The translations under genes were made by a program, and so were the position numbers. Shown here piece after piece: positions 1 through 11,584 of a DNA stretch of 64,000 nucleotides; positions within the stretch are counted from its first letter, which is position 1; each line of letters starts with the position of its first letter. The notes under the pieces are model-generated. The model had not been told where the DNA came from. It worked only from the letters and a program-made list of their open reading frames with translations, and ran no database searches. The DNA comes from a virus (Duplodnaviria; Caudoviricetes). The DNA lies in IMG/VR virus record IMGVR_UViG_3300028591_000176, positions 1-64,000 of that record, one strand, 5' to 3'.

Positions 1-587
1 TCGTCTGGAAACACCTGTCGCAATACGCGCAAGAATACCTGTACGTCACGCGATGCCTGATGCCGCTGACGTTTTGCTTCACCTCTTTCCATAGCTTCTT
101 TCTCTTTTTCTTCTTTTTCTTTTTTGTTTGCAGTTTCTTTGTATTTCTCACTTGCCGCACCAAGCTTGCAGCCCTGTGCTTTCTTGACAGCTAACGCTTT
201 CTTCGTGCGGTCACTTGTCAGCTCGCGTTCGTATTGTGCAACACTGGCAAATACGCCTAACAGCAAAGAATTCATTACTGGCATGTCCGTGAAATGAATC
301 TCTATGCCAGTATTAACAACGCGGAAGCAGAACTCTACGTCGCGTGCCAATCTGTCAAGCTTCGCAATAACCAGCGGATATTCGTTCTGTTTGCAATAAC
401 AGATGGCCTGCGCAAGACCTTTTCTGTCTCTGTGCGTACCTGACTCGACGTCAACAAACTCCTGTACGCACTTGCCGTTTGCGTTCTTTATAAAGTCCTC
501 GCACATCTTTCTTTGTGCGTCAAGACCCAAACCCGAACGCCCTTGCTTTTGCGTAGATACACGCAGGTATGTTACATATTTTTTCAT
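1..587 (-). CDS. Serine recombinase (resolvase/invertase family), 3' end runs off the window
   Basis: Hand translation from ATG at 587: MKKYVTYLRVSTQKQGRSGLGLDAQR...VESG...LVIAKLDRLARD...SVAQYERELTSDRTKKAL. Shows the YxRVST catalytic-Ser motif and the DRLxR motif. Absent from the ORF track because no stop lies inside the window. Confidence 0.9.
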   Translation of the reverse strand, partial: MKKYVTYLRVSTQKQGRSGLGLDAQRKMCEDFIKNANGKCVQEFVDVESGTHRDRKGLAQAICYCKQNEYPLVIAKLDRLARDVEFCFRVVNTGIEIHFTDMPVMNSLLLGVFASVAQYERELTSDRTKKALAVKKAQGCKLGAASEKYKETANKKEKEEKEKEAMERGEAKRQRHQASRDVQVFLRVLRQVFPD

Positions 588-5593: not shown

Positions 5594-5687
5594 GATAAAG
5601 TCCTCCGTTTGTTTAAATGATTAATGAAAAATGATTATTGTTTGTTACGTTTGCACAGACCGCTCGCTTTGCGCCCGCTAAAAGAGT

Positions 5688-5931: not shown

Positions 5932-6489
5932 TTATGCCTTCTCAAAGGTGACAGTGACGCTGCCGTCTGCACCCTTTTCGGTTTTCTTGATATAGACCTC
6001 ACCCTTTTCAATTAAAGCGTTTTTGTGCTCCTCGGCTACCTTTGCCTCCTCCTGAGCGTCAACGAGCTCGGCCGACTGACACAGACCTTCCAAAATAAGA
6101 CTATCGTCCCAGAGTTTTGGCGTACCGAGGACACGTACCTTCACCGACACGAATTTTACACCTTTTTTCGTTTCGACCTTTTCGTACATATTGACCTCCT
6201 TGGGCTCGCCCTTTTCGTTTGTGATGGTGACCTTGGCCGTTTCGCTTAAATACAAGCCCATAACGGCCTTGCCGTCGACGTTGATACGCAAAGCGTCTGC
6301 CCACCCTGCGCAAACGTTTTTAAAACCGAAAGATTCAATACCGAGCGATTCTAGTACTTCGGCATGCTTCGACTCTAGACCCGACAAGGCCTTTAATGCT
6401 TGATTGAATGTACCTGCGGCAGCATGTACTGGTGAACACTTGCCACGAAGGACGTTGATTTTGCTAACTTCATTTACTTTCTTTGTCAT
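5932..6489 (-). CDS. Hypothetical protein, first gene of the leftward early run (185 aa)
   Basis: AGGAGGT 7 nt upstream of the ATG; long ORF. Confidence 0.8.
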   Translation of the reverse strand: MTKKVNEVSKINVLRGKCSPVHAAAGTFNQALKALSGLESKHAEVLESLGIESFGFKNVCAGWADALRINVDGKAVMGLYLSETAKVTITNEKGEPKEVNMYEKVETKKGVKFVSVKVRVLGTPKLWDDSLILEGLCQSAELVDAQEEAKVAEEHKNALIEKGEVYIKKTEKGADGSVTVTFEKA

Positions 6490-6636
6490 AATTTTGACCT
6501 CCTGATTTTTGGTTTTAAATTAATAATGAATGATAAATAATACTTGCGCCTTGGGGAAAAGTCGCGAAAACTCCCAAGGTCTGCACCTGCCAAACGGCCT
6601 GCGCTTTTCTGCACCTTTTTTCAGTAACAAAAATAA

Positions 6637-6652
6637 TGTTTCACGTGAAACA
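6637..6652. promoter_or_regulatory. parS: parS-like centromere site (perfect palindrome TGTTTCACGTGAAACA)
   Basis: Exact match to the bacterial chromosomal parS consensus TGTTNCACGTGAAACA. Confidence 0.85.
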
Positions 6653-6862
6653 CTGTCTTCGTATATCAAAATTCTATATTTGCGTTTTATTGTTTCTGCA
6701 CCAAGTCATCATTTGCAACCTTCCGCAGTATTGCAACCTGCGAAAATGTTTTCAATAAAAATAGGTATTGCAAGCGCAAAGTCTTGCACCTAATTAACGC
6801 AAATTAAAGTACTGATTTTTTCCTCGTTTAGAATTTTTTCGTGTCAAATTTGGTCGGCAAAA

Positions 6863-6894
6863 TGTTTCACGTGGAACATGTTTCACGTGGAACA
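6863..6894. promoter_or_regulatory. parS: Two abutting parS-like sites (TGTTTCACGTGGAACA x2)
   Basis: 6863-6878 and 6879-6894 are identical 16-mers. Their reverse complement TGTTCCACGTGAAACA fits the parS consensus. Confidence 0.85.
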
Positions 6895-7408
6895 AATAAC
6901 TGCACTTAATAGCCAAATTACATGCAAGGAGTCTTCGGCCTCCCGTTTACATGTTTAGGTAAAATATCGTTATACCTTGTCCGTGTCCTCGCTACCTAAA
7001 AAGTGTTATATACTATTTTTCTATATCATGTAACCTTCCCGAGGCTACCTTTTCAGTCACTTGCAAAGTTATATCTTTCGTTTCTCACTTAGTCTGCGCT
7101 CCTGCCTAAATTACAAGTTATAAACCTTGTGTTCAGGGTGCAAAGATTTGCAAAGCATTTATCTTTTAGCATTATTCAGTTAACAGTCTTTTCGTTACAC
7201 TTTCAAAAGTATACCTGCTGCACCTTTTCTTTTGTATGGTAAATAAGTGAAAGAACATACAACAAATTACTTCGCTTTATGCAAGCTTTTCAAATGTAGT
7301 CGGGAAGGTATCTCAAGAAAATGAATTCTTTCGAAAGAGCTTCGTCCTCGTTGGACGTTTTTTAAACGGCCGTCCTCCGTTTTATCGCGTGAATCACTTT
7401 TCACGTTG

Positions 7409-7440
7409 CAAAGGTACAACGATTTTCTCAATTACGCAAT
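7409..7440 (-). promoter_or_regulatory. Bacteroidota-type promoter, leftward
   Basis: Minus-strand TACCTTTG (7409-7416) matches the -7 TAnnTTTG consensus, with ATTG 20 nt upstream. Confidence 0.6.
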
Positions 7441-7489
7441 ACTTTGCTATCTTTTTAACAAATAACGCCTAACTAGCTGAAAATCAGCA

Positions 7490-7960
7490 AAGTTTATGTT
7501 AAAATCGTATTAAAAATATGTTAACAATACATGAAAATGTGTACTATCTTTATTTTTTTTGTTTCGCAATTAATTGATTATTAATAACATATCCAAAAAT
7601 ATATAGAAATAAAGTAATAACTTTTTACTATAGTGTTAAGTTGAAAAAATATATTTTAAATAGTGTAATAGTATGCTAGTACGCCGTTTTATAGCCGGGT
7701 TATTAAAATTGCACAAAAATAGGAAAATGTGCAATTTTGTTGTATCTGATATATTGTCTATATACATATTTAATAATATAATAATGTAATAATATTATAG
7801 TGTACTATTATATTAATACACTATATAATATAATATATAATTTACTCTTTTATTTTAGTTAGTTAGTTTTTAGTATTTATATTGTTATGTTAGTTAGTGT
7901 GTATTGTTAGTTATTTAGTTATTTGTTTAGTTAGTTAGTATATACAAGTCGATACGAAAA
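7490..7960. repeat. Extremely AT-rich low-complexity tract with many TTAG/TAGT units
   Basis: Seen directly. No ORF; TTAG repeated many times at 7855-7940. Confidence 0.8.
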
Positions 7961-8245
7961 AACAAAATAGGCATGTTTTCGGGATAACTGGATAACTGGA
8001 AAAACGCTGAAAAGTTAGTTATTTGTTGTTTGGTGTACATGTTAGTTTTAAGCTAGTTTTAGCAAATGAACAATTGTCAAAAATAGCAAATTTCCGAAAA
8101 CGCTAGAAAATAGGCTCAGTCCGTCGACGTTACTCTAAACATGTTAGGGGTGGGGGGGGTGCCCAGCCAGCCCAATTGTCTGGTACAAACCCACTTTTTT
8201 GAAAAAAAATTTTTCAAAAACGAAAAATCAAAAAACGAAAAACGC

Positions 8246-8323
8246 ATTTTAAGCCGTTTTAAGCGGTTTTTTCTTTCTTTGTGGGACTTTATCCACTTTG
8301 GGTATAAAAGCGCGCCTATGGGC
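8246..8323 (-). repeat. Dispersed ~80-bp intergenic element, copy 1
   Basis: Reverse complement shares AAAACGGCTTAAAAT (15/15) and GCCC(A/G)TAGGCGCG (12/13) with 15990-16068 at near-identical spacing (50 vs 51 nt). Confidence 0.75.
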
Positions 8324-8614
8324 TTAAAAATGGCTTTTATGGGTTTTCTTTGTGTTTTATCATCCTGCGTGTGTCTGGTATAAGCAGATTACATGTTGTT
8401 ACATATTATTTCGCATTCGTTTTACATGTTGTTACATGCCTTTACATGTGTTTTTTTAAAAATGCCATAATTTTGCGTATTCGCGCGCGTGTGTGCGTAT
8501 ATGTGTATATATATTATATTGTGTATACCTTTAAAATAGTGTACATTCATAAAAAAGTGTACCTATTTAGTATAATTTTTGTTAAAGGATTATTGTTTTT
8601 ATGTTTTTTGTGCT

Positions 8615-8622
8615 TATCTTTG
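8615..8622 (+). promoter_or_regulatory. Bacteroidota -7 promoter element for the rightward replication operon
   Basis: TATCTTTG about 36 nt before the ATG at 8659. Confidence 0.65.
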
Positions 8623-8658
8623 CACAAAATTTCATGTAAAAGTAAAAAGTAGTGTTTT

Positions 8659-8925
8659 ATGATTAAGGTAGAGGATGAAAGAAGATGGGCTTCGATATTA
8701 CAGATAGTCCAGTCAAGTCATTTAGACATTGTTATGGCGAGTTTGTCAAATGTGCTTGCAGAGATAAACAACGAATTATCGGTTACTGAAAAAGGTAGCA
8801 ATGAATATTTTCGTCTTACGCACCTTATGACGTTGTTTGGTGGTTGTTATTCTGCGATACGTGGTGCAGATGGAATAATCACAGGTATGGTCATTGACAT
8901 GTTGGATGGTTTGAAAGGAAAGTAG
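8659..8925 (+). CDS. Hypothetical protein (88 aa)
   Basis: First ORF after the promoter. Confidence 0.65.
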   Translation: MIKVEDERRWASILQIVQSSHLDIVMASLSNVLAEINNELSVTEKGSNEYFRLTHLMTLFGGCYSAIRGADGIITGMVIDMLDGLKGK

Positions 8926-8950
8926 ATGTTTCATGAAAAAATAGAATTAT

Positions 8951-9379
8951 ATGAAAGCGAATGAATTGATGATTGGCGACTGGGTATACAACACCCATAA
9001 TCGCCAGAACGAACAAGTCGCAGAAATAGGCAGCGGTCTTGTTATGCTTGCATACAATGACCTGTATGAGTATGACGAAATAGAGCCGATTCCTCTTGTT
9101 CCTGAAATACTTAAAAAAATGGGCTTTAAGGTCGAATTAGAGCCAAAGTATGACGACACTTACACGAAAGACGTGTATCTTGCCTATCTGAAATGTGTTG
9201 ATGCTAGAGGTTGCGATGTCGAGGTTAGATATGAAACTAGCGGCAATGAGTTGTCGGTGTTTAGTTCTGACAGGCGCAACATTCTTCCTTGTAAGATGGT
9301 TGACATGCAGGTTTGTTTTGCGCATGAGTTACAGCATATCTTTAATATGCTTCAAATTGACAAAGAGATTATTTTATAG
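8951..9379 (+). CDS. Hypothetical phage protein (MKANELMIGDWV...IEPIPLVPEILKKMGF type)
   Basis: N-terminal and IPL..EIL.K.GF motifs resemble a family I recall from Bacteroidota phages; function unknown. Confidence 0.75.
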   Translation: MKANELMIGDWVYNTHNRQNEQVAEIGSGLVMLAYNDLYEYDEIEPIPLVPEILKKMGFKVELEPKYDDTYTKDVYLAYLKCVDARGCDVEVRYETSGNELSVFSSDRRNILPCKMVDMQVCFAHELQHIFNMLQIDKEIIL

Positions 9380-9788: not shown

Positions 9789-10187
9789 TTGACTATCGTT
9801 CACGGAATCATGAGAAGGAAGGATATTCGCAGGGTTGCGCGTGATGCTGCTTTGCAGTCGTTATGTCGTGATTACCTTGGTCGTTTGCGTCATGTGGCTG
9901 ACAAGCATGGTCTTGGCGACTGGCTGCGTGGTTTGATAAAGAGCAACCGTCGTGGTGAGTGTCGTGGCACGGAGCATGAGGTTGCGATGTTAAGTCGTTT
10001 GTGTGATGATGAGCGTGTGCAGCGTCAGGATGTGCCGCGTGTTCTTGGTATGTCTTACCGTAAGGCTAATGATGGTGGTTTCTTTGACAAGGTAAAGCGG
10101 CTACGTCATGTAGGTGTGTACAGTAAGATTGGCGCGTTGTTGTTAGGTAGTGAGTTAAAGGCGTTGAGTGATGACAGCGAGCGTTAG
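9789..10187 (+). CDS. Hypothetical basic protein (132 aa)
   Basis: ORF packed between SSB and the first MTase. Confidence 0.65.
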   Translation: MTIVHGIMRRKDIRRVARDAALQSLCRDYLGRLRHVADKHGLGDWLRGLIKSNRRGECRGTEHEVAMLSRLCDDERVQRQDVPRVLGMSYRKANDGGFFDKVKRLRHVGVYSKIGALLLGSELKALSDDSER

Positions 10188-10818
10188 TGTCATGATGAAT
10201 TGCGACTGTATGGAGTACATGCGGCTCTTGCCTGATGGTTATTTTGCTCTTGCCGTTGCTGACCCTCCTTATGGTATTGGCATCGCGTCAAATCCTGTCA
10301 GGCAGGCTCATGTGCGTAAAGAGTGGGATAGTACCATTCCGTCTGACAAATTTTTCAGCGAGCTGTTTCGTGTCTCGAAGAATCAGATTATCTGGGGTGG
10401 TAATTATTTCGGGCTTCCTCCCAACAAGCATTTTCTTATATGGGATAAGCTACAGCCGTTTGATTTCAGTCTTGCGATGTGTGAATATGCATGGTCTAGC
10501 TTTGACAAGCCAGCTAAGATATTCAGGATGCGTGTTGTGTCTTCTAATGGAGTTAGCAAGATTCATCCGACACAGAAGCCTGTCGAGCTTTACGCTTGGA
10601 TATTACGCAACTACGCCAATGCTGGTGACGTCATTTTTGACCCAATGGTCGGTTCTGGTAGTAGTCGTATTGCTGCATATAAGCTTGGCTTTGATTTCTG
10701 CGGATGTGAGATTGACAAAGATTATTTTGACGCGCAAGAAGAAAGATTTAAGTCAGAGTGTCTTGGTGACATACAGGTGAGCAAAGAAAAAACAGTCAAA
10801 CAGCTAACTTTGTTTTAA
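10168..10818 (+). CDS. Orphan DNA amino-methyltransferase (beta class, N6/N4), ends QLTLF
   Basis: DPPY catalytic motif, HPTQKPVELY, SAM-binding DPMVGSGS, GCEID. No cognate endonuclease adjacent. Confidence 0.92.
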   Translation: MMTASVSVMMNCDCMEYMRLLPDGYFALAVADPPYGIGIASNPVRQAHVRKEWDSTIPSDKFFSELFRVSKNQIIWGGNYFGLPPNKHFLIWDKLQPFDFSLAMCEYAWSSFDKPAKIFRMRVVSSNGVSKIHPTQKPVELYAWILRNYANAGDVIFDPMVGSGSSRIAAYKLGFDFCGCEIDKDYFDAQEERFKSECLGDIQVSKEKTVKQLTLF

Positions 10819-10819
10819 T

Positions 10820-11584
10820 ATGATTGAGCTTAATAAAATATACAATGGCGATTGTCTTGATGTAATGCAGGGGATAGACGACAAAAGTGTTGATTTGATT
10901 CTTTGCGACCTGCCTTATGGCACTACGCCGCTAAAGTGGGATAGCATAATTCCTTTTGAGCCGTTGTGGGATGCCTACAAGCGCATAATAAAGCCTGATG
11001 GTGCTATTGTGCTGTTTGCCGTGCAGCCGTTCACCACGATGCTTATTTCAAGCAATATCGCCATGTGGAAATACAATTGGGTTTGGGTTAAGGACAATGG
11101 CACTAATTTTCTCAACTCTCATTTTCAGCCGTTAAAGATTACGGAGGACATTTGTGTCTTTAGTTTTAGTGCAGCATCACAGAACAGCAATCCGATGACG
11201 TATAATCCACAGATGCGTGAAGGGTTTGACTCATACGTACGTGTCAGGGGCGAGCGTAAGCCTAATGCGGTCACGCGTTCCAAATTGCAGCGTTGTACTA
11301 CAAACAACGACGGCACGCGTTATCCGACGAATATTTTGTATTTCAAAAGAGACAAAGAGAAGTTGCATCCTACGGCGAAGCCCGTTGACCTGTTACGTTA
11401 CCTCATTCGCACGTATACAGGCGAAGGCGGGCTTGTTCTTGATAATTGCGCTGGCTCTGGTAGCACTTGTATTGCTGCCATTCGTGAGAAGCGTAACTGG
11501 ATAGGCATTGAGCTTGATGAGGGTTATTTTAACCTAGCTTCCGAAAGAATTGCGCTTGAAAAACGGCAATTAACCTTATTTTAG
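10820..11584 (+). CDS. Second orphan DNA amino-methyltransferase (beta class), ends QLTLF
   Basis: DLPY catalytic variant, HPTAKPVDLL, DNCAGSGS, GIELD. Confidence 0.92.
   Translation: MIELNKIYNGDCLDVMQGIDDKSVDLILCDLPYGTTPLKWDSIIPFEPLWDAYKRIIKPDGAIVLFAVQPFTTMLISSNIAMWKYNWVWVKDNGTNFLNSHFQPLKITEDICVFSFSAASQNSNPMTYNPQMREGFDSYVRVRGERKPNAVTRSKLQRCTTNNDGTRYPTNILYFKRDKEKLHPTAKPVDLLRYLIRTYTGEGGLVLDNCAGSGSTCIAAIREKRNWIGIELDEGYFNLASERIALEKRQLTLF

What the first reader, a model, noticed from the sequence alone, without database searches (positions are those of the whole stretch)
6637..6894. Three host-type parS centromere sites in a phage control region, with no ParB/ParA gene in the window
Seen: a perfect palindrome TGTTTCACGTGAAACA (6637-6652) and two head-to-tail copies of TGTTTCACGTGGAACA (6863-6894), clustered in 260 bp of non-coding DNA just upstream of the early genes. 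Three 16-mers of this form together by chance is very unlikely. Established: this is the conserved chromosomal parS bound by ParB (CTP clamp, SMC loading), normally confined to the oriC region; plasmid-prophages such as P1 and N15 use their own distinct par systems. Inference: the phage borrows host ParB, either to segregate as an extrachromosomal or carrier-state genome, to load SMC, to silence or time the early promoter by ParB spreading, or to titrate ParB and disturb host segregation. None of the window's ORFs looks like ParA or ParB.
Basis: partly seen in the sequence, partly recalled or inferred. Interest (0 to 1): 0.9.

Follow-up and report, generated by a model that had tools for sequence, protein, structure and literature searches.

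The report
Host parS centromeres on a Bacteroidales phage
A roughly 77-kb gut or rumen phage of Bacteroidales carries three exact copies of its host's chromosome "centromere" (parS) in its control region but no ParB of its own, so it most likely borrows the host's ParB, as Bacillus phage phi29 is known to do.

Summary
TGTTTCACGTGAAACA (6637-6652) and two tandem TGTTTCACGTGGAACA (6863-6894) are the only matches in the 76.8-kb circularly permuted genome, against none in 100 shuffles. The whole genome has no ParB_N, HTH_ParB, AAA_31 or CbiA hit.

Both variants are the chromosomal parS of the likely host family: 85 of 151 genomes have an exact match and the control pattern has none. In 6 of 6 genomes examined the pair flanks a phosphoribosyltransferase gene between gidA and uvrC. 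The closest cultured relative is a Bacteroides uniformis phage.

The sites sit in two fixed slots upstream of a conserved 185-aa gene. They recur in 8 of 20 related lineages, including relatives at 48% identity, with at least 4-6 gains or losses. CACGTG is otherwise purged from the genome.

Most likely host ParB-CTP loads here. The favoured payoff, inferred only, is positioning and inheritance of the unintegrated genome; promoter control or ParB titration are not excluded.

This scan has flagged ParB-less phages with host parS many times on other DNA. I class it as a new variant, not a new principle.

The parts
6637..6652 (.). parS-1, a perfect 16-bp palindrome TGTTTCACGTGAAACA (the 'proximal slot', 148 bp upstream of the ATG at 6489)
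   Evidence: The same slot holds a parS in L019 (one mismatch) and in L146.
6863..6878 (.). parS-2, TGTTTCACGTGGAACA (the 'distal slot', first of a tandem pair)
   Evidence: The reverse complement, TGTTCCACGTGAAACA, is a common chromosomal variant in the host family.
6879..6894 (.). parS-3, TGTTTCACGTGGAACA, directly abutting parS-2
   Evidence: The distal slot holds 2 copies in L143, 1 in L019, L020 and L145, and 0 in L146 and L007, within conserved flanks.
7383..7412 (.). Possible decayed tandem parS pair (CGCGTGAATCACTTTTCACGTTG). It overlaps a candidate leftward -7 box at 7409-7416. Weak.
   Evidence: Repeat family D1/D4. It lies in an 18-bp indel versus L004.
6490..8140 (.). 1.65-kb non-coding control region between divergent early and replication gene blocks. 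It is AT-rich, GC skew changes sign here, and the right half carries short repeat arrays (TTAG x21 at 7855-7939, GGATAACT x2.4 at 7982-8000). It is a candidate origin, not shown.
   Evidence: DnaA boxes are not enriched.
6628..6635 (-). Candidate Bacteroidota-type -7 box TATTTTTG for the leftward operon, one base from parS-1
   Evidence: Pattern scan. The box is kept in relatives with or without parS. Promoter activity is not shown.
6675..6682 (+). Candidate rightward -7 box TATATTTG; parS-1 would lie over its -33 region
   Evidence: It is not strictly conserved in relatives.
5932..6489 (-). A conserved 185-aa gene of unknown function. This is the gene that parS sites always lie upstream of, even in relatives at 48% identity.
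   Evidence: 67 homologues, no Pfam or PHROG hit. AF2 model with pLDDT 91 and no PDB fold match. parS positions are.
3..587 (-). Small serine recombinase (Resolvase domain; the ORF is about 270 aa across the circular junction). It may resolve episome multimers (inference only).
   Evidence: No tyrosine integrase was found.

Best explanation
The three 16-mers are genuine host-type parS sites. After the circularly permuted genome enters a Bacteroidales cell and circularises, the host's ParB (a CTP-dependent clamp) loads at this 260-bp cluster. It spreads over the adjacent control and origin region and builds a partition complex on phage DNA without any phage-encoded ParA or ParB. The most likely payoff is that host ParA/ParB (and possibly SMC) position unintegrated phage genomes and pass them to daughter cells, giving a carrier or pseudolysogenic state. 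This would be the non-sporulating counterpart of phi29's Spo0J-dependent entrapment in the spore. Shown here: sequence identity to the host sites, absence of phage Par proteins, and recurrence at fixed slots in relatives. Inferred: ParB binding itself, and the segregation payoff.
For: (1) There are three exact matches, against 0.00 expected.
(2) Both variants are the chromosomal sites of the probable host family. 85 of 151 genomes have an exact match and none has a control hit, usually with 1-2 sites per genome. In 6 of 6 genomes looked at, the pair flanks a phosphoribosyltransferase gene between gidA/mnmG and uvrC. ParB_N is present in 3 of 3 such genomes.
(3) The host assignment rests on TerL being 51% identical to Bacteroides uniformis phage C3_41T2LP.
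(4) The whole phage genome has no ParB_N, HTH_ParB, AAA_31 or CbiA.
(5) parS recurs upstream of the same 185-aa gene in 8 of 20 related lineages, with 1-3 copies. This includes L149 and L150 at 48% protein identity, where apart from one weak 89-bp block (73% identity) farther upstream, only the 16-mers are still similar between the upstream regions.
(6) CACGTG occurs only inside the three parS sites (0 elsewhere against 7.6 expected), in a genome generally purged of 6-bp palindromes. The sites are therefore kept against a genome-wide trend.
(7) An unrelated pig-gut Microviridae genome has the identical 32-bp tandem pair next to VP4. More than 109 IMG/VR contigs carry paired parS, and only 2 of 50 tested have ParB_N.
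(8) There is a published precedent: phi29 has five parS sites and Spo0J-dependent genome segregation (PMC2731898; sequence hits).
(9) There is no tyrosine integrase, and there is a small serine recombinase that could resolve multimers.
Against: No binding data exist, and the actual host is unknown. The sites are dispensable: 12 of 20 related lineages lack them, including the nearest complete genome (G241) and the cultured relative. On the neighbouring gene's tree the trait needs at least 4-6 gains or losses. parS-1 sits directly against candidate promoter elements, which would suit a regulatory role as well as a centromere role. In parS-less relatives the distal slot holds another palindrome (1-2 copies) that is not a host site, so the slot may simply favour palindromes. 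A carrier state has not been shown for this phage group. ParABS function and an ori-proximal position of parS are not established for these hosts: the sites lie 0.5-0.8 Mb from the dnaA gene in 3 complete genomes.
Confidence: 0.6

Rival explanations
1. ParB as a borrowed regulator. Host ParB bound at parS-1 (between two candidate divergent promoters) and at the tandem pair (inside the long leader or non-coding transcript) represses or times early transcription. Phage development would then be tied to the host's ParB/CTP state, as ParB or KorB spreading silences nearby genes on plasmids.
For: parS-1 abuts a conserved leftward -7 box (6635-6628) and overlaps the -33 zone of a rightward one. All sites lie within the control region, not elsewhere in the genome. 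The degenerate pair overlaps a further -7 box.
Against: The promoters are only consensus matches. In distant relatives the sites lie 228-389 bp upstream in unrelated sequence. Unrelated phages place parS in non-promoter contexts, such as after VP4 or within phi29 genes. This reading is compatible with the main explanation rather than exclusive of it.
Confidence: 0.12
2. ParB sink. Replicating phage DNA, with three strong sites per copy, titrates host ParB away from the one or two chromosomal sites. This disturbs host segregation, SMC loading or division to the phage's benefit.
For: Host genomes usually carry only 1-2 exact sites, while the phage carries three per copy. The phage looks lytic-capable and has no integrase.
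Against: No known benefit has been demonstrated for any phage. One site is enough in several relatives. In the phi29 precedent the sites serve phage-genome segregation, not host damage.
Confidence: 0.12
3. An ordinary operator or hairpin slot. The palindromes are bound by a phage-encoded (or other host) dimeric regulator, or act as RNA/DNA hairpins, and the resemblance to parS is incidental.
For: In parS-less relatives the distal slot holds a different palindrome, AATCTAANNTTAGATT, also in 1 or 2 tandem copies. That palindrome is not a host chromosomal site (2 of 151 genomes). The small early ORFs at 8141-9379 are unique to this phage and unannotated.
Against: A 16/16 identity to the host's two commonest parS variants at three sites is not plausibly incidental, and it recurs in distant relatives and in unrelated phages. 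No ORF in the +/-4 kb flanks co-varies with parS presence. No HTH_ParB-like protein is present.
Confidence: 0.08
4. A non-functional passenger: the 16-mers spread by recombination among co-circulating phages, or are relics without present function.
For: The phylogenetic distribution is patchy, with as many changes as random labels would give. The sites appear as precise indels.
Against: The copies are perfect or near-perfect in many lineages, and they are kept although CACGTG is otherwise purged. The expectation of the motif by chance is essentially zero.
Confidence: 0.05

Closest known systems
Host-type parS sites of virulent Bacillus phages phi29 and Nf (Meijer et al. 2005, EMBO J, as summarised in PMC2731898)
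   Same: A phage without its own ParA or ParB carries several copies of the host chromosomal parS consensus and uses the host's ParB (Spo0J). The same 16-mer is retrieved in phi29-family genomes by BLAST with this window's tandem pair.
   Different: phi29 is a 19-kb protein-primed podovirus of a spore former, and the shown payoff is entrapment of the genome in the prespore. Here the phage is a 76.8-kb circularly permuted phage of non-sporulating Bacteroidales. The sites are clustered in 260 bp of the control region instead of being dispersed, and they are gained and lost among close relatives.
Chromosomal ParABS/parS of bacteria (B. subtilis Spo0J, Caulobacter ParB; CTP-dependent clamp, SMC loading)
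   Same: The 16-bp sequence is identical, and both variants are found at the conserved gidA-apt-uvrC locus of the probable host family.
   Different: The sites are on a virus, with three in 260 bp against the usual 1-2 per host chromosome, and there is no linked parAB.
Plasmid-prophage partition cassettes (P1 parABS, N15 sopABC; mycobacteriophage parABS)
   Same: A centromere-like site on an extrachromosomal phage genome, with a possible multimer-resolving recombinase in the same genome.
   Different: Those elements encode their own ParA and ParB with private centromeres. This genome has neither and uses the host's sequence.

Membership tests
Chromosomal-type parS (ParB/Spo0J loading site, consensus TGTTNCACGTGNAACA) | 16-bp inverted repeat matching the consensus | tested here: met
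   Three exact matches, none in 100 shuffles.
Chromosomal-type parS (ParB/Spo0J loading site, consensus TGTTNCACGTGNAACA) | The same sequence is used at the (probable) host's chromosomal centromere locus | tested here: met
   85 of 151 genomes of the Segatella/Prevotella/Bacteroides family have an exact match and none has a control hit. The pairs flank apt between gidA and uvrC in 6 of 6 genomes. The true host is not known.
Chromosomal-type parS (ParB/Spo0J loading site, consensus TGTTNCACGTGNAACA) | Bound by ParB, with CTP-dependent loading | not testable with these tools
   This needs EMSA or ChIP. Candidate hosts do encode ParB_N proteins (3 of 3).
phi29-type piracy of host parS | The phage lacks its own ParA and ParB | tested here: met
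   PF02195, PF17762, PF13614 and PF01656 give no hit at E<=1 in the 97-100% complete genome, and the controls are positive.
phi29-type piracy of host parS | Several host-type parS sites on the phage genome | tested here: met
   Three sites. phi29-family records show 2-4 matching places each.
phi29-type piracy of host parS | Host-ParB-dependent segregation of the phage genome (into the prespore in phi29) | not testable with these tools
From established knowledge, Bacteroidales do not sporulate, so the end use must differ.
Plasmid-prophage partition cassette (P1 parABS, N15 sopABC) | Phage-encoded ParA ATPase and ParB adaptor next to a private centromere | tested here: not met
   No ParA or ParB family hit anywhere in the genome.
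Operator of a phage-encoded repressor | A cognate DNA-binding gene that co-varies with the site, and sites repeated at regulated promoters | tested here: inconclusive
   No ORF in the +/-4 kb flanks is shared by parS+ loci and absent from parS- loci. The sites occur only in this one region. Only flanks, not whole genomes, were available for most relatives.

The most novel reading that the evidence does not exclude
Host-parS cassettes are a rapidly gained and lost accessory module. Through it, non-integrating phages of gut and rumen Bacteroidales, and co-resident microviruses carrying the identical tandem pair, would ride the host ParABS machinery for stable carrier-state inheritance. 'Centromere piracy' would then be a general, phylum-spanning phage strategy rather than a phi29 curiosity, and one molecular basis for the long-term persistence of apparently virulent gut phages.
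Probability: 0.3. Interest if true: 0.75.

Novelty: new variant of a known kind. Interest (0 to 1): 0.5.

Why it matters
Many abundant gut and rumen Bacteroidales phages persist for long periods without integrating, and how they do so is poorly understood. A phage that loads the host's ParB on its own DNA would have a ready-made inheritance or positioning device at a cost of only 48 bp.

This clade offers natural parS-plus and parS-minus relatives with otherwise homologous control regions. That is an unusually clean comparative system for testing what host ParB does for a phage.

The other results here show that the phi29 case is one instance of a widespread, largely undescribed habit: an identical tandem pair in pig-gut microviruses, more than 109 IMG/VR contigs with paired parS of which 48 of 50 tested lack ParB_N, and 331 GenBank phage records with matches.

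Tried and rejected
- Rfam scan of 6000-8600: only sub-threshold chance hits.
- tRNA scan: none.
- DnaA boxes (TTATCCACA, up to 1 mismatch): 22 against 17 expected in the window and only one in the control region, so no oriC mimicry is claimed.
- The alternative palindrome AATCTAANNTTAGATT of parS-less relatives was tested as a second 'host site'. It occurs in 2 of 151 host-family genomes and once in G241, so this idea was rejected.
- The 185-aa neighbouring protein was tested as a possible ParB-like or DNA-binding factor. It has no Pfam or PHROG hit. Its AF2 model is confident, but Foldseek-PDB gave no match at E<=0.001 and VIA-align wide gave a best Z of 2.4. Its function remains unknown.
- Exact search for the 32-bp tandem pair, and for a conserved non-coding 22-mer, in IMG/VR: only the known relative.
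- The cultured relative C3_41T2LP (no site within 2 mismatches) and the nearest complete genome G241 (none within 2 mismatches of the N-containing pattern) have no parS anywhere.
- A gene co-varying with parS in the +/-4 kb flanks: none.
- Literature searches for natural host-type parS on phages other than phi29/Nf, and for the cultured relative's host strain: nothing relevant.
- Host flanks of parS show no evident similarity to the phage flanks (by eye), so capture of a host fragment is not supported.

Full report
**1. Observation**

The window holds TGTTTCACGTGAAACA at 6637-6652. It also holds two head-to-tail copies of TGTTTCACGTGGAACA at 6863-6894.
- With no mismatch allowed to TGTTNCACGTGNAACA, the window has three matches against 0.00 in 100 dinucleotide-preserving shuffles.
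- These are the only copies in the whole 76,969-bp virus record of which the window is bases 1-64000.
- The record's ends overlap by 140 bp (139/140 identical), so the genome is a complete 76,829-bp circularly permuted unit.

The sites lie in a 1.65-kb ORF-free stretch (6490-8140). It is 35% GC, and GC skew changes sign here.
- To the left are minus-strand genes: a 185-aa unknown, an AAA_5 ATPase and DUF7192.
- To the right is a plus-strand replication block: an SSB, two N6/N4 methyltransferases, a DUF6291 initiator-like protein and a DnaB-like primase/helicase.

A degenerate tandem-like remnant sits at about 7383-7412.

**2. No partition proteins**

ParB_N (PF02195), HTH_ParB (PF17762), AAA_31 (PF13614) and CbiA (PF01656) give no hit at E<=1 anywhere in the genome, while the control genomes ring. 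There is no tyrosine integrase. There is one small serine recombinase with a Resolvase domain, an ORF of about 270 aa across the circular junction.

**3. Whose parS is it?**

The large terminase is 51% identical to that of Bacteroides phage C3_41T2LP, isolated on Bacteroides uniformis. The next hits are other Bacteroides and Phocaeicola phages.

I obtained named Bacteroidales genomes through a 16S primer scan and searched them.
- In the family around Segatella copri, 85 of 151 genomes have an exact match to the pattern, and none matches the reversed control pattern.
- These genomes usually have 1-2 sites.
- The two commonest variants are exactly the phage's two sequences.
- In six genomes examined, the pair flanks a phosphoribosyltransferase gene between gidA/mnmG and uvrC. 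This is a conserved intergenic position, as expected of a real chromosomal site.
- ParB_N proteins are present in 3 of 3 genomes.

One caveat applies. In three complete genomes the sites lie 0.5-0.8 Mb from the dnaA gene, and I could not locate oriC.

**4. Relatives**

The 185-aa gene has 67 metagenomic homologues. I fetched their upstream DNA.
- Eight of 20 distinct lineages carry 1-3 parS sites within 160-560 bp upstream of this gene: the window, L019, L020, L143, L145, L146, L149/L150 and L277.
- Twelve lineages have none. These include the nearest complete genome, which has no site anywhere, and the cultured relative.

Alignments show two fixed slots.
- The proximal slot is occupied in the window, L019 and L146.
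- The distal slot holds 2 copies in the window and L143, 1 copy in L019, L020 and L145, and 0 in L146 and L007. The flanks are conserved in all of these.
- In L004 and L147 the distal slot instead holds one or two copies of a different palindrome, AATCTAANNTTAGATT. That palindrome is not a host site (2 of 151 genomes).

L149 and L150 are only 48% identical in the protein and have three sites. Apart from one weak 89-bp block (73% identity) farther upstream, only the 16-mers are still similar to the window in their upstream DNA.

On a maximum-likelihood tree of the neighbouring protein, the trait needs six changes, with at least four forced by well-supported branches. It is no more clustered than shuffled labels. 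The sites are therefore an accessory, fast-turning-over feature that is nevertheless repeatedly kept in perfect form.

**5. Selection signal within the genome**

CACGTG occurs three times in 76.8 kb, and all three are the parS cores. Outside them it occurs 0 times against 7.6 expected under a Markov model. The genome is generally depleted of 6-bp palindromes, for example CTTAAG 0 against 13 and GATATC 1 against 20. The parS sites are exceptions to a genome-wide purge, which argues that they are maintained.

**6. Local context**

Candidate Bacteroidota -7 boxes (TAnnTTTG) were found by pattern scan.
- One lies on the minus strand at 6635-6628, a single base from parS-1. It is kept in relatives.
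- One lies on the plus strand at 6675-6682.
- A plus-strand terminator-like hairpin lies at 7343-7357.
- Blocks of 6930-7250 are about 95% identical to L004, more conserved than the neighbouring coding sequence. This suggests a structured leader or non-coding RNA.
- The right half of the region carries short repeat arrays and may be the origin. DnaA boxes are not enriched.

None of these elements is experimentally defined.

**7. Other phages and the precedent**
- An unrelated Microviridae genome from pig faeces (MG945337.1) has the identical 32-bp tandem pair directly after VP4. Twelve Microviridae records match in all.
Only 2 of 50 tested have ParB_N, and only 1 of the 19 near-complete ones does.
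- A BLAST with the tandem pair against GenBank phages finds 331 records. The top hits are the phi29 family (phi29, Nf, PZA, B103), with 2-4 places each.
- phi29 is the published precedent. It carries five parS sites, and host Spo0J is involved in segregating its genome into the prespore (PMC2731898, citing Meijer et al. 2005). I found no paper on such sites in Bacteroidales phages.
- This scan has reported host-type parS on ParB-less phages repeatedly on other DNA, including a rumen T4-like clade. These are unchecked AI notes that agree with my reading.

**8. Interpretation**

The best-supported reading is that host ParB-CTP loads on this cluster. Taking what ParB is known to do together with the phi29 case, I favour positioning and inheritance of unintegrated genomes as the payoff. 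The absence of an integrase and the presence of a possible resolvase point the same way. This step is inference.

The other readings stand as follows.
- Promoter control by ParB and ParB titration remain open and are not mutually exclusive with the main reading.
- A private phage operator is unlikely. The sites are 16/16 identical to the host variants, they recur in unrelated phages, and no gene in the flanks co-varies with them.
- The patchy distribution shows the sites are dispensable and probably host- or niche-dependent.

**9. Verdict**

The interpretation 'borrows host ParB' is reasonable but not new in principle. I class this as a new variant of the phi29-type strategy, in a different phylum and phage type. 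Its useful feature is the set of natural parS-plus and parS-minus relatives.

Noticed in passing
window 6900-7480 (and L004 4950-5640): Non-coding blocks are about 95% identical to a relative whose neighbouring protein is only 79% identical. They include a cUUCGg-capped hairpin (6938-6975) and a plus-strand terminator-like hairpin at 7343-7357. This is probably a structured leader or a roughly 0.5-0.7-kb non-coding RNA. There is no Rfam match.
   Followed up: partly
whole genome (window 1-64000 plus 13 kb beyond): Six-bp palindromes are strongly avoided (CTTAAG 0 against 13 expected, GATATC 1 against 20, CATATG 1 against 19, CACGTG 0 against 7.6 outside parS). This is a restriction-avoidance signature, in a phage that also carries two orphan N6/N4 methyltransferases (10168-11584).
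   Followed up: partly
L004 about 5628-5647, L147 about 1370-1410: parS-less relatives carry one or two tandem copies of another palindrome (ATAATCTAAAATTAGATTAT) at exactly the distal parS slot. It is not a host chromosomal site (2 of 151 genomes), and what binds it is unknown.
   Followed up: partly
window 5932-6489 (-): The 185-aa protein is conserved in all relatives. Its AF2 model is confident (pLDDT 91; helices plus an eight-stranded beta unit), but it has no Pfam or PHROG family and no PDB fold match (best Z 2.4). It is always the first gene downstream of the parS slots.
   Followed up: partly
MG945337.1 1444-1475 (L263 4001-4032) and 11 other Microviridae records: Pig-gut microviruses of 6.5 kb carry host-type parS, in one case the identical 32-bp tandem pair, next to or within the VP4 replication-initiator gene.
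   Followed up: partly
IMG/VR loci L154-L262: Many 11-14-kb viral contigs with inverted terminal repeats carry paired parS inside both terminal repeats and lack ParB_N. They look like small phi29-like or ITR phages with centromere sites at their ends.
   Followed up: no
host genomes, e.g. L268-L273: In the Segatella/Prevotella/Bacteroides family the chromosomal parS pair sits at a fixed locus (gidA/mnmG - parS - phosphoribosyltransferase - parS - uvrC). It is far from parB and 0.5-0.8 Mb from the dnaA gene in three complete genomes.
   Followed up: partly
window 8141-9379 (+): The first four small rightward ORFs have no homologue in the corresponding flanks of any fetched relative. The relatives instead start with a 192-194-aa gene. 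This is a swapped early-gene cassette.
   Followed up: no
window 3-587 (-), continuing across the circular junction: A small serine recombinase (Resolvase domain, ORF of about 270 aa). The cultured relative annotates a similar 271-aa 'integrase'. Whether it is an invertase, a resolvase or an integrase is open.
   Followed up: partly
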